Positions 25,142 through 26,077 of a stretch of DNA of 64,000 bases are shown one piece after another. Origin of the DNA: Dehalococcoidia bacterium. Lineage in GTDB: Bacteria; Chloroflexota; Dehalococcoidia; Bin125. The position numbers and the translations under genes were made by a program. The DNA is taken from assembly GCA_963663185.1 (NCBI GenBank), contig OY760135.1:664081-728080 (forward strand), given 5' to 3'. The notes under the pieces were generated by a model, which saw only the letters and a list, made by a program, of their open reading frames with translations, had not been told where the DNA came from and did no database searches. The stretch's first letter is position 1, and each line of letters starts with the position of its first letter.

Positions 25142-25242
25142 GTTGCTGATTCGTTTCAGAGCCTTTTTCACGGAAGTCGTCGTGATCGTCAGGCGGGAAG
25201 GGGAGTCGGCGTGGCCGGCGCGAGCGGGTGAGGTGCCAGATC

Positions 25243-25353
25243 GAATTCGTGGCTCACGCGCTTGACCAGATGAAGGAGCGAGGGGTTGACCAGGAGGCCG
25301 TGGAGTTCATCGGAATCGAGCGGGAGCTCGACCTGAGGGAGCTGCCTGACTAA
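25243..25353 (+). pseudogene. chimeric remnant: DUF4258-like N-terminal segment fused in frame to a DUF2283-like C-terminus
   Basis: ..EFVAHALDQMKERGVDQEAVEF|IGIERELDLRELPD*. The first half parallels HAIERLKLRGISQADVEF of the neighbouring toxin and the second half parallels ..AEFIGLDGEIDLRGLPD of the antitoxin. The junction falls at a shared GAGTTC (EF). Confidence 0.4.
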
Positions 25354-25750
25354 CAGCTCATCTGCGAAGCCATCCTTGCGAGTGAGCATCGAGACTTCAC
25401 CATCTATTGCGACGAGAGTTTGGACTCGGCGCGTTGCGGACGTTATGAACTCCGGGGCCAAGGCGGCGCGCAATCACGTGAGACTGTCTCACTTTCAGGA
25501 ATCATCTCGCCTTGCGCTCGAACTTCCCGTCCCCGCCCCCGAGTCTGCCACTTTCTTGAATAGGGGCAGGGACCTGATTCGCTCCCGGTATGGCTCGTGG
25601 CAGATAGACGCACCATCCCGAGTAGACCCCTGCGTAAAGGGGGATGGGCCAGGGCGATTCGCGCCGACGCGCTCGCGTACGTGGCGGAGAGCCTTGAAGG
25701 CAGTACCACCGCAGTCAGCGGTTGCCGCTGGCAGAGGGGGAAGCCTGGAT

Positions 25751-26077
25751 GCGAGCATCATGGCCATGCTTCGTGGAATGCCGAGGCCGCGATCCTTACT
25801 GGCACTGACGGCCGGCGCCGTGATCGTTCCATTTGCGCTGTGGTTGGCTGCTGAAGTCGATGTCGCGACGGCCTGTGTCTACTGGTTGCTCGCGGTGGCG
25901 ATTCCAGTAGCAGCTTCGGTCAGTTGGGCGTATACCCAATTGGCGGCTGAAGCTCTGGCGGATCGTTTCAGCCAACACAGAGTCGAGCCTGGCCTGACCA
26001 ACGGGAACAGCACTTCAGGTGCGGTCCCCGTTCTAGTTCTGGGAATCGTCAGGCGGGAACGGGAGTCGGCGCGGTGA
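25751..26077 (+). CDS. small two-TM hypothetical membrane protein
   Basis: MAMLRGMP..LLALTAGAVIVPFALWLAAEV..VYWLLAVAIPVAASVSWAY.. Its C-terminal tail ..IVRRERESAR is duplicated as a 28-bp direct repeat at 25181. Confidence 0.3.
   Translation, partial: ASIMAMLRGMPRPRSLLALTAGAVIVPFALWLAAEVDVATACVYWLLAVAIPVAASVSWAYTQLAAEALADRFSQHRVEPGLTNGNSTSGAVPVLVLGIVRRERESAR

What the first reader, a model, noticed from the sequence alone, without database searches (positions are those of the whole stretch)
25175..26077. In-frame toxin::antitoxin chimera created by microhomology deletion, plus a 28-bp direct repeat of a gene tail
25243-25353 encodes ..EFVAHALDQMKERGVDQEAVEF-IGIERELDLRELPD*. The first half parallels the DUF4258 toxin N-terminus and the second half the DUF2283 antitoxin C-terminus, joined at a GAGTTC (Glu-Phe) codon pair present in both genes of the intact neighbouring pair. 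This is the expected product of a deletion between short homologies that removed the toxin body and antitoxin N-terminus of a second, divergent TA copy. Separately, atcgtcaggcgggaa(g/c)gggagtcggcg appears at 25181 and 26046. Each encodes a ..IVRRE(G/R)ESA C-terminal tail, one as the true end of the 25751..26077 ORF and one orphaned. The locus therefore records several successive duplication and deletion events.
Basis: seen in the sequence. Interest (0 to 1): 0.5.

Follow-up and report, generated by a model that had tools for sequence, protein, structure and literature searches.

The report
Decayed toxin-antitoxin remnant in cassette hotspot
This is a dead remnant of a second toxin-antitoxin gene pair, with the start of the toxin gene fused to the end of the antitoxin gene by a ~311-bp deletion, in a small variable gene island of an uncultured Dehalococcoidia bacterium; it is ordinary gene decay, and the nearby 30-bp repeat is a duplicated end of the conserved gene on the opposite strand.

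Summary
25228-25353 (+) encodes MRCQIEFVAHALDQMKERGVDQEAVEF|IGIERELDLRELPD*. A toxin profile built from relatives matches only residues 4-27 (28.5 bits). An antitoxin profile matches only residues 25 onward (30.9 bits, continuing past the stop). Each half scores below zero on the other profile, so the chimera reading holds and the rival reading, a truncated antitoxin alone, is rejected. Intact pairs in relatives put the deletion at 310-316 nt, with the junction inside GTG-GAG-TTC (25300-25308).

Three points need correcting.
- The neighbouring pair is not intact. The toxin has a 1-nt frameshift and the antitoxin a premature TGA.
- The TAA at 25351 is a strain-specific nonsense mutation. Four close relatives have CAA and a 73-75 codon fused ORF.
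- The repeat (25185-25214 and 26045-26074, 28/30 identical) is the 3' end of a conserved 196-aa gene on the minus strand (...SELTAPTPVPA*). It is not the true tail of the + ORF, which only reads into it because this strain lost a stop codon.

The setting is a variable insertion site between two core genes. About ten related genomes have only 7-14 nt there, and two others also carry orphan copies of the same gene tail. No intact second pair was found. Ordinary decay; low interest.

The parts
24093..24325 (+). Toxin-1 (DUF4258) pseudogene. The ATG at 24093 is out of frame with the body (frame of 24047-24325) because of a 1-nt deletion after 24103.
   Evidence: Pfam DUF4258 25.8 bits, E 1.3e-5. 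Alignment with four close relatives shows ACAT-GAA in the window against ACATCGAA. Those relatives carry a TAG at codon 57 instead.
24338..24538 (+). Antitoxin-1 (DUF2283/YuzE-like), cut short by TGA at 24536-24538. Homology to the 87-aa family continues in frame to about 24605.
   Evidence: Homologs are 83-96 aa and extend about 21 aa beyond this stop. L034, L035 and L012 have AGA at this codon.
24743..25141 (+). DUF6941 gene, the only island gene that looks constrained.
   Evidence: Pfam DUF6941 105 bits, E 3.6e-30. Variable sites among 5 strains are 1.3%, against 6-14% in the remnants.
25185..25214 (-). Orphan copy of the last 26 nt of the 196-aa gene, including its stop codon, plus the 4 nt beyond the stop. 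On the minus strand it reads ..ATPTPLPA*.
   Evidence: 28/30 identical to 26045-26074. Invariant in 5 strains.
25228..25308 (+). Toxin-2 5' fragment: GTG start plus codons 2-27 (MRCQIEFVAHALDQMKERGVDQEAVEF).
   Evidence: Toxin HMM positions 3-26, 28.5 bits, E 7e-11 at Z=1. E 2.7e-7 over the six-frame window. Pfam DUF4258 16 bits on HMM 3-20. DNA of 25236-25304 is 79.7% identical to the 5' end of the L019 toxin, E 9e-14. 62.5% aa identity to the L017 and L019 toxin N-termini.
25300..25308 (+). Junction GTG-GAG-TTC (V25-E26-F27), claimed by both profiles. The deletion breakpoint and its microhomology (0-9 nt, not resolvable) lie here.
   Evidence: The toxin HMM alignment ends at F27 and the antitoxin HMM alignment starts at V25. 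Toxin DNA homology ends at 25304/5 and antitoxin DNA homology starts at 25303.
25309..25449 (+). Antitoxin-2 3' fragment, from codon 28 onward. It is interrupted by the strain-specific TAA at 25351-25353. Profile homology runs to at least 25416, and the ORF in relatives ends near 25449.
   Evidence: Antitoxin HMM positions 46-84, 30.9 bits, E 9e-12, aligned straight through the stop. Relatives have CAA and ORFs of 73-75 codons.
25450..25700 (.). About 250 nt with no recognisable homolog; among the most variable parts of the island.
   Evidence: No blastn match in more distant relatives. 10% variable sites over 25451-25750 among 5 strains. No Rfam match.
25760..25975 (+). Small two-helix ORF (71 codons, ..ADRFS). 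Its stop codon (TAA in relatives) is CAA at 25973-25975 in this strain, so the ORF reads on to 26077.
   Evidence: The ORF is frameshifted in L034/L035 and L024 and only partly present in L008 and L017. GC by codon position is flat. No Pfam match.
26045..26074 (-). Functional copy of the repeat: the true 3' end (..APTPVPA*) of the 196-aa gene plus the 4 nt beyond its stop.
   Evidence: The tail SELTAPxPVPA* is conserved in the 33 loci compared.
26049..26639 (-). Conserved 196-aa gene of unknown function (p196). In related genomes without an island its stop codon lies 7-14 nt upstream of the CoA-transferase start.
   Evidence: 22 loci in genome contigs at 56-86% aa identity. Synteny. Coding-like GC1/2/3 of 0.71/0.46/0.74. 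No Pfam, NCBIfam or PDB match.
26640..27115 (-). PIN toxin pseudogene, frameshifted after ..EFRHSAAL. It belongs to a second variable TA slot on the other side of p196.
   Evidence: Translation in two frames compared with the intact 147-aa PIN genes of L002, L004 and L005.

Best explanation
The segment is a pseudogene remnant of a second type II toxin-antitoxin module (DUF4258 toxin, DUF2283/YuzE-like antitoxin).

Setting: the module once lay in a small variable island between two conserved genes, the 196-aa gene p196 and a family III CoA-transferase. The host is an uncultured Dehalococcoidia (Chloroflexota) lineage.

The deletion: about 311 bp were lost. This removed toxin codons 28-77, the short spacer and antitoxin codons 1 to about 47. 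The breakpoints lay in the Val-Glu-Phe codons that both genes carry (GTGGAGTTC in the product), so the two stumps were joined in frame. That the deletion used microhomology is inferred, not shown, because no parental sequence is available.

What remains: the toxin's catalytic body and the antitoxin's DUF2283 core are both gone, so it cannot work as a toxin-antitoxin pair. In this strain a later CAA to TAA change cut the 73-codon fused ORF to 41 codons.

The 30-bp repeat is a separate scar. It is a duplicated copy of the last 8 codons, the stop and the next 4 nt of p196 on the minus strand. It marks the joint between two blocks of island DNA: TA1 plus DUF6941 on the left, and the TA2 remnant plus the small ORF on the right. 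It was most probably made when one block was recombined in through one-sided homology in p196, either by single-crossover integration or by homology-facilitated illegitimate recombination. This last step is inferred.
For: Shown:
1. Profile split. The toxin HMM hits residues 4-27 only (28.5 bits) and scores the C-half at -1.5 bits. The antitoxin HMM hits residues 25-63 only (30.9 bits) and scores the N-half at -1.1 bits. The fragment is the only non-self hit to both profiles in the six-frame window.
2. Family alignment. The C-half keeps all 8 invariant antitoxin columns it covers (E47 F48 I49 G50 D56 L57 L60 P61). The N-half keeps 3 of the 9 invariant or nearly invariant columns it covers.
3. 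DNA homology switches at 25303-25305, from the toxin 5' end (L019, 79.7%, E 9e-14) to antitoxin (L023).
4. The N-half starts at the same position as intact toxins (M-x-x-I-E/D-F/Y...HAL.QM), including the start codon.
5. Intact pairs in L008, L012, L017, L019, L026 and L028 give a distance of 310-316 nt between the two EF-type codons.
6. The fusion is present in five independent assemblies that are 96.7-97.9% identical, so it is not an assembly artefact and predates their split.
7. L024 carries what looks like a different, larger deletion of the same toxin-2: 11 codons (VRDAIEFVAHA) joined to the region upstream of the small ORF.
8. The remnant varies about 5 times more than DUF6941 (6.3% against 1.3% variable sites).
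9. The p196 tail is conserved in the 33 loci compared. Orphan p196 tails also occur in L020 (58 nt, flanking a 1.15-kb HSDR_N nuclease-like gene) and L022 (27 nt).
Against: - No intact second pair was found, so the parent is inferred. Searched: about 37 related loci, the word-indexed protein search (only the fused ORF itself) and the exhaustive representative search with the fused ORF.
- The length of the microhomology cannot be fixed (0-9 nt). The neighbouring antitoxin has GAGTTT rather than GAGTTC at the homologous site.
- The fused ORF is intact (73-75 codons) in four relatives. The few substitutions split 4 synonymous to 4 non-synonymous, so weak selection on it cannot be excluded.
- BLASTP alone aligns the whole peptide to antitoxin-1 (18/36, E 6e-8). 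The toxin N-terminus and the middle of the antitoxin share a chance E..H..RG..A.EF pattern.
- The L024 remnant rests on a 20-nt match at 90% (E 0.002).
- Which block was inserted, and by what recombination mechanism, is not resolved.
Confidence: 0.85

Rival explanations
1. The segment is only a 5'-truncated DUF2283 antitoxin pseudogene. There is no toxin part, and the N-half is degraded antitoxin sequence.
For: BLASTP aligns residues 5-40 to antitoxin-1 residues 28-62 (18/36 identical, E 6e-8). tblastn extends this to 45 residues at 44% identity.
Against: The antitoxin family profile gives the N-half -1.1 bits and starts its alignment only at residue 25. The N-half keeps only 3 of 9 invariant or nearly invariant antitoxin columns and needs a 1-residue insertion. 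The same residues score 28.5 bits on the toxin profile and 16 bits on Pfam DUF4258. They match toxin genes at the DNA level (79.7% over 69 nt).
Confidence: 0.03
2. The fused 73-codon ORF is, or was until recently, a functional small gene. One possibility is a decoy or regulator that keeps the toxin's N-terminal helix and the antitoxin's C-terminal tail. In that case it is retained by selection in the lineage and only recently lost in the window strain.
For: The ORF is open in 4 of 5 strains. It keeps the native GTG start, and the two halves remain close to their family profiles. Synonymous to non-synonymous variable sites are 4:4, where neutrality predicts about 2:6 (not significant). Full-length toxin-antitoxin single-gene fusions are known in this superfamily (PMC11980606).
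Against: Both domain cores are missing. Site variability is about 5 times that of the adjacent DUF6941 gene. Indels (6 nt and 1 nt) accumulate in the C-terminal extension. The window strain has a nonsense codon. L024 deleted most of the region. Neither database holds a homolog outside this lineage. Gene callers disagree on strand and start.
Confidence: 0.08
3. The chimera did not arise by an internal deletion in one pair. It arose by recombination between the toxin gene of one cassette and the antitoxin gene of a different cassette at the shared EF(I) codons, for example during cassette exchange.
For: Recombination inside these antitoxin genes does occur. The L018 and L017 antitoxins share a nearly identical C-terminal 60 aa, but their N-termini and their toxins differ strongly. 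The N-half is closest to L017/L019-type toxins, while the first 17 residues of the C-half are closest to P0006/P0012-type antitoxins.
Against: All identities are low (39-62%), so the 'closest type' assignments are weak. A single deletion is more parsimonious. Both routes give the same product and the same non-functional outcome.
Confidence: 0.1
4. The 30-bp repeat is the duplicated C-terminal coding tail of the + strand ORF ending at 26077.
For: Both copies are open in a + frame that reads IVRRE(G/R)ESA.
Against: In four close relatives the + ORF ends 100 nt earlier at TAA 25973-75. Only this strain has CAA there. The + ORF has flat GC by codon position, no homologs in Pfam, and is frameshifted in L034/L035 and L024. 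The minus-strand reading ..APTPVPA* is the conserved end of p196 in the 33 loci compared, including genomes that have no + ORF at all.
Confidence: 0.03

Closest known systems
DUF4258 (PF14076) / DUF2283 (PF10049, YuzE-like) type II toxin-antitoxin modules. DUF4258 is a BECR-fold toxin family of the RelE/ParE or colicin-like group (PMC11980606; bioRxiv 10.64898/2026.08.28.747851).
   Same: The two halves derive from these two families. Intact toxin-then-antitoxin pairs of the same subfamilies occupy the same chromosomal slot in related genomes (L008, L012, L017, L019, L026, L028).
   Different: Only toxin residues 1-27 of about 77 and antitoxin residues from about 46 of 87 survive. The nuclease core and the DUF2283 beta core are deleted, so it is a remnant and not a module.
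Fused toxin-antitoxin single-gene modules (Gerdes 2025, PMC11980606; for example 17 DUF4258-MqsA fusions)
   Same: One ORF carries toxin-derived and antitoxin-derived sequence in the order toxin then antitoxin.
   Different: The known fusions keep both complete domains. This one keeps neither, and it carries a nonsense codon in the window strain.
Decay of chromosomal TA loci: toxin inactivation with antitoxin remnants, and deletions between short homologies (general knowledge, not tested here against a specific paper)
   Same: All three toxin genes at this locus are inactivated: frameshift, deletion, frameshift. Close relatives inactivated toxin-1 by a different mutation, which points to independent, recurrent loss.
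   Different: Nothing essential. This is a well-resolved example because many syntenic relatives are available.
Integrative elements that insert into the 3' end of a gene and restore it, leaving direct repeats (attL/attR)
   Same: Direct repeats of 27-58 nt of the p196 3' end flank inserted DNA in the window lineage and in L020. L022 shows a 27-nt orphan copy next to the same kind of insert.
   Different: The gene calls for the fetched flanking DNA (5-10 kb on each side where the contig allows) list no integrase or recombinase. The inserts are only 0.8-1.2 kb. Homologous or illegitimate recombination is a sufficient explanation.

Membership tests
DUF4258 toxin (PF14076) | Match to the Pfam model at or above the gathering score (25 bits) over most of the 71-position domain | tested here: not met
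   15.9-16.4 bits, covering HMM positions 3-20 only. The neighbouring toxin-1 reaches 25.8 bits over positions 3-69.
DUF4258 toxin (PF14076) | N-terminal motif (I-E-F/Y-x-x-H-A-L-x-Q/R-M-x-E-R-G-V/I) positioned at the start of the protein | tested here: met
   Custom toxin HMM positions 3-26, 28.5 bits. Start-aligned with the L017, L019 and L008 toxins.
DUF4258 toxin (PF14076) | BECR-fold body (..RPA.RR..P....R.IG.R.CK.Y.R....P..V.TV.WHGE) | tested here: not met
   Absent. The toxin profile alignment stops at position 26 of 77.
DUF2283 / YuzE-like antitoxin (PF10049) | Match to the Pfam model (49 positions, beta core D.LY..L.....G.E) | tested here: not met
   No Pfam hit for the chimera or its C-half at E up to 10. 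Antitoxin-1 itself reaches only 19.2 bits against a cutoff of 23.
DUF2283 / YuzE-like antitoxin (PF10049) | Subfamily C-terminal part (EFIG....DLRGLP plus a roughly 25-aa extension) | tested here: met
   Custom antitoxin HMM positions 46-84 of 87, 30.9 bits. All 8 invariant columns covered are kept.
Functional type II TA module | Two adjacent complete ORFs, a toxin and its cognate antitoxin | tested here: not met
   A single fused 41-codon ORF (73-75 codons in relatives) lacking both cores.
Fused toxin-antitoxin mono-gene module | Complete toxin domain and complete antitoxin domain in one polypeptide | tested here: not met
   Both domains are truncated.
Integrative element with att duplication at a gene 3' end | Direct repeats of the target gene's 3' end flanking the inserted DNA | tested here: met
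   Window: 30 nt, 93% identical, 860 bp apart. L020: 58 nt. L022: a 27-nt orphan copy.
Integrative element with att duplication at a gene 3' end | Integrase or recombinase encoded in or next to the insert | tested here: not met
   No integrase or recombinase Pfam family among the genes called in the fetched flanks, 5-10 kb on each side where the contig allows. The island ORFs have no such domain.
Integron gene cassette array | IntI integrase, attI, and attC inverted-repeat sites at cassette 3' ends | tested here: inconclusive
   No IntI in the neighbourhood gene calls. The repeat is a direct copy of coding sequence, not an imperfect palindrome. No dedicated attC search was run.

The most novel reading that the evidence does not exclude
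The 3' end of p196, around its stop codon (TCAGGC...), could be a dedicated attachment site where small integrase-less cassettes are captured repeatedly by a recombinase acting in trans. The cassettes seen are DUF4258/DUF2283 TA pairs, DUF6941 and an HSDR_N nuclease-like gene. On this reading the orphan p196 tails (window, L020, L022), the TCAGG found at the left edge of TA cassettes (intact in L005, L025 and L026, mutated in the others), the tandem TCAGGCT units in L011 and the replaced tail in L012 are all scars of site-specific events, not of sporadic illegitimate recombination.
Probability: 0.12. Interest if true: 0.55.

Novelty: new member of a known kind. Interest (0 to 1): 0.2.

Why it matters
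On its own this is a routine example of toxin-antitoxin decay. Its value is mainly for annotation:
- 25228-25353 and the antisense ORF at 25189-25473 should be treated as one pseudogene, not as genes.
- The 25760-26077 ORF is a strain-specific read-through.
- The "intact" neighbouring pair is also dead.

The wider locus is a clean natural series. About ten empty sites, single TA cassettes, stacked cassettes and different decay states sit between the same two core genes in some 37 Dehalococcoidia genomes. That series could be used to study how small defence and addiction cassettes are gained, stacked and eroded in genomes without obvious mobile-element machinery.

Tried and rejected
- NCBIfam scan of all island ORFs: nothing.
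- Rfam at E up to 1 over 23900-27600: nothing.
- Promoter and terminator consensus scan of 24000-26700: nothing.
- The hairpin at about 26002-26032 folds at -19.9 kcal/mol but with z of only -0.97.
- PDB sequence search with p196: no significant match.
- The Pfam HopBA1 hit to the chimera (E 0.01, 16 bits against a cutoff of 27) was judged spurious.
- Word-indexed protein search with the 41-aa peptide returned only the fused ORF of sister strains.
- Exhaustive HMMER search with the 59-aa form returned itself plus two long multi-repeat proteins, and no close intact antitoxin-2.
- The metagenome scan with p196 added only one locus, an empty site.
- The closest antitoxins to the antitoxin-2 part are only 39-46% identical over 28-41 residues, so no donor type could be named.
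- A 17-34 nt resemblance between 25201-25234 and the CoA-transferase 5' end (23965-24000, families D4 and D13) was considered as a trace of a larger duplication. It was dismissed as GC-rich chance similarity, because the two families differ in spacing by 2 nt and the expected number of chance matches of that quality is about 0.1.
- The order of insertion of the two island blocks could not be settled.
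Full report
**1. What is in the sequence**

The window region 24040-27450 has 55-64% G+C, against about 66% in its flanks. It lies between a family III CoA-transferase gene (22850-24037, minus strand) and an enoyl-CoA hydratase gene (27465-28253, minus strand).

The ORF starts at GTG 25228.

The repeat is also real. 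25185-25214 and 26045-26074 are 28/30 identical and 860 bp apart. The pattern occurs only twice in 64 kb, with none expected by chance.

**2. Is it a chimera?**

Pairwise BLASTP was ambiguous. The peptide aligns to the neighbouring toxin over 23 residues (10 identical, E 2e-6). It also aligns over its whole length to the neighbouring antitoxin (18/36, E 6e-8). That raised the rival reading of a truncated antitoxin with no toxin part.

Family evidence settles the question.
- A search with the neighbouring antitoxin returned 21 homologs. In their alignment the C-half of the peptide keeps all eight invariant columns it covers. The N-half keeps three of nine invariant or nearly invariant columns.
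- I built two profiles: one from eight toxins of syntenic relatives and one from 20 antitoxins. The toxin profile matches residues 4-27 (profile positions 3-26, 28.5 bits, E 7e-11) and gives the C-half -1.5 bits.
- The antitoxin profile matches residues 25-63 (positions 46-84 of 87, 30.9 bits, E 9e-12) and gives the N-half -1.1 bits.
- Pfam agrees for the toxin part (DUF4258, HMM 3-20, 16 bits) and finds no DUF2283 signal. The DUF2283 result is expected, because the Pfam model ends where the retained part begins.
- Scanning all 1,721 six-frame fragments of the window, this fragment is the only non-self hit to both profiles (E 2.7e-7 and 2.7e-4).
- At the DNA level, 25236-25304 is 79.7% identical to the 5' end of an intact toxin gene (L019, E 9e-14). 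From 25303 the match switches to an antitoxin gene (L023).

The two alignments overlap in V25-E26-F27 (GTGGAGTTC, 25300-25308). In six intact pairs from relatives the corresponding codons lie 310-316 nt apart. The event was therefore a deletion of about 311 bp. It is automatically in frame at the shared Glu-Phe codons.

**3.

a) *The remnant is longer than the ORF.* The antitoxin profile aligns straight through the TAA at 25351 into QLICEAILASEHRDFTIYCDE. The protein search with the peptide returned P0022 and P0023, which are fused ORFs from sister strains that read ...ELPDQQLICEAILASE.... Alignment of five assemblies (window/L001, L002, L033, L034, L035; 96.7-97.9% identical) shows CAA in all four relatives where the window has TAA. 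The fusion predates their split, and the stop codon is a later, strain-specific mutation.

b) *The neighbouring pair is not intact.*
- Toxin-1 has a 1-nt deletion after 24103 that separates its ATG (24093) from the body. The four relatives lack this deletion but share a TAG at codon 57.
- Antitoxin-1 stops at TGA 24536. Homologs are 83-96 aa, and L034, L035 and L012 have AGA at that codon.

c) *The microhomology.* At the homologous position antitoxin-1 has GAGTTT, not GAGTTC.

**4. What the repeat is**

Copy 2 overlaps the 3' ends of two convergent ORFs.
- The minus-strand one (26049-26639, 196 aa, "p196") has a coding-like G+C pattern by codon position. The + ORF is flat.
- p196 has orthologs at 56-86% identity in 22 Dehalococcoidia/Chloroflexota species genomes, and more in loci fetched by other routes.
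- In the 33 loci compared, the tail reads SELTAPxPVPA* or a close variant.
- The + ORF (ATG 25760) ends at TAA 25973-75 ('..ADRFS*') in the four close relatives. Only the window has CAA there and therefore runs on through the p196 tail. The + ORF is also frameshifted in L034/L035 and L024.

The repeated sequence is therefore the end of p196 read on the opposite strand. Copy 1 (..ATPTPLPA* on the minus strand) is an orphan. Both copies are invariant in the five strains.

**5. Context from relatives**

The backbone hydratase, CoA-transferase, p196, hydratase is conserved.
- Ten species genomes and one metagenome contig have only 7-14 nt between the p196 stop and the CoA-transferase start.
- Others carry one TA pair there (L003/L018, L005, L008, L017, L019, L026-L031). 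L025 shows only the antitoxin.
- L012 carries a TA pair plus DUF6941.
- L020 and L022 carry a 1.15-kb gene with an HSDR_N / PD-(D/E)xK domain (Pfam E 5e-15).
- L020 has a 58-nt orphan p196 tail next to the CoA-transferase start, and L022 a 27-nt orphan tail after its antitoxin. Orphan tails are therefore a recurrent by-product of insertion at this site.
- L024 has antitoxin-1 followed directly by what looks like the first 11 codons of toxin-2 (VRDAIEFVAHA; 18/20 nt, E 0.002). These are joined to the region upstream of the small ORF. This is probably an independent, larger deletion of the same second module.
- No locus has an intact second pair. The antitoxin-2 part is only 39-46% identical to any antitoxin found. 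An exhaustive search with the fused ORF found no close relative outside the lineage.

**6. Mechanism and history (inference)**

TA2 is too diverged from TA1 (45-50% aa identity) to be a recent local duplicate, while the two tail copies differ at only 2 of 30 positions. The simplest history has three steps.
1. Two cassette blocks were brought together at this hot spot by recombination anchored on one side in p196 or the CoA-transferase gene, duplicating 30 nt of the p196 end.
2. A 311-bp deletion between the VEF codons of toxin-2 and antitoxin-2 followed.
3. Point mutations accumulated afterwards.

Which block came second cannot be decided from the data.

The remnant evolves about five times faster than DUF6941 (6.3% against 1.3% variable sites). 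With 4 synonymous and 4 non-synonymous sites, weak constraint on the fused ORF in sister strains cannot be formally excluded.

**7. Comparison with known systems**

DUF4258 is an accepted BECR-fold type II toxin family (PMC11980606; bioRxiv 10.64898/2026.08.28.747851). DUF2283 is its partner here by conserved adjacency in many relatives. The segment fails the membership tests for both domains as complete units. It is also unlike the described full-length toxin-antitoxin fusions. It is a decay product.

**8. Verdict**

The chimera interpretation is supported. The repeat interpretation is corrected: the tail belongs to p196 on the minus strand. The neighbouring pair is also a pair of pseudogenes, and the PIN toxin on the other side of p196 is frameshifted too. 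This is ordinary genome decay in a cassette hot spot, and the interest is low.

Noticed in passing
window 24093-24325, 25228-25353, 26640-27115: All three toxin genes around p196 are inactivated in this strain: toxin-1 by a 1-nt deletion, toxin-2 by deletion plus a nonsense codon, PIN by a frameshift. Four sister strains killed toxin-1 by a different mutation (TAG at codon 57) and keep an intact 147-aa PIN of a different type.
   Followed up: yes
L020 (segment positions 38-95 and about 1285-1345 in window orientation); L022: A 1.15-kb gene with an HSDR_N / PD-(D/E)xK nuclease-like domain is inserted about 58 nt inside the p196 3' end. In L020 it is flanked by 58-nt direct repeats of that end, whose outermost 12 nt differ at 4 positions. 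This looks like single-crossover integration of DNA that carried a p196 tail from another host.
   Followed up: partly
left junctions of L005, L008, L012, L017, L019, L024, L025, L026 and window 24038-24055: Every TA cassette begins just after the CoA-transferase start with T(C)AGGATA(R)G. That is the TCAGG of the empty-site p196 stop region followed by cassette DNA, so a 5-nt TCAGG flanks the cassettes. It is either microhomology, a target duplication or a crossover site.
   Followed up: partly
L011, between p196 and the CoA-transferase gene (66 nt): Three to four tandem copies of TCAGGCT(G/A), the p196 stop region, sit in an otherwise empty site. They may be scars of repeated recombination at this point.
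   Followed up: no
L012, p196 3' end; window 26074: In L012 the p196 tail is replaced from the codon after ..SEL (AEVRYASELGVAVALAS*). That is within 1-3 nt of the inner edge of the window's repeat. DUF6941 lies directly next to it in L012, with no second TA remnant.
   Followed up: partly
L018 versus L017 antitoxin genes: The C-terminal 60 residues are nearly identical, but the N-terminal 25 residues and the cognate toxins are only about 50% identical. This points to recombination inside the antitoxin gene between cassette types.
   Followed up: no
window 26049-26639 (-): p196 is a 196-aa protein conserved in every related genome, sitting between the hydratase and CoA-transferase genes. It has no Pfam, NCBIfam or PDB sequence match. 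Its function is unknown, though it appears to be part of a conserved acyl-CoA metabolism gene cluster.
   Followed up: partly
window 26002-26032 (+): A hairpin (GGGAACAGCAC...GTGCGGTCCCC) lies just beyond the p196 stop. Perfect or near-perfect versions occur at the same place in L017, L008, L005, L018 and L024. On its own it is not significant in the window (z -0.97).
   Followed up: partly
window 25450-25700: About 250 nt between the antitoxin-2 remnant and the small ORF have no detectable homolog in more distant relatives. The stretch is among the most variable parts of the island (10% variable sites over 25451-25750 among five strains).
   Followed up: partly
window 25189-25473 (-): An antisense ORF of 94 aa (called as 66 aa in the Logan assembly of the same strain) overlaps the chimera and ends in the orphan p196 tail. 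Its coding-like G+C pattern mirrors that of the + strand remnant, so it is most likely not a gene.
   Followed up: partly
P0024 (616 aa) and P0025 (448 aa), from the representative search: These long proteins contain 4-6 separate stretches that match the antitoxin-derived part of the fused ORF. They may be multi-repeat DUF2283-like proteins.
   Followed up: no
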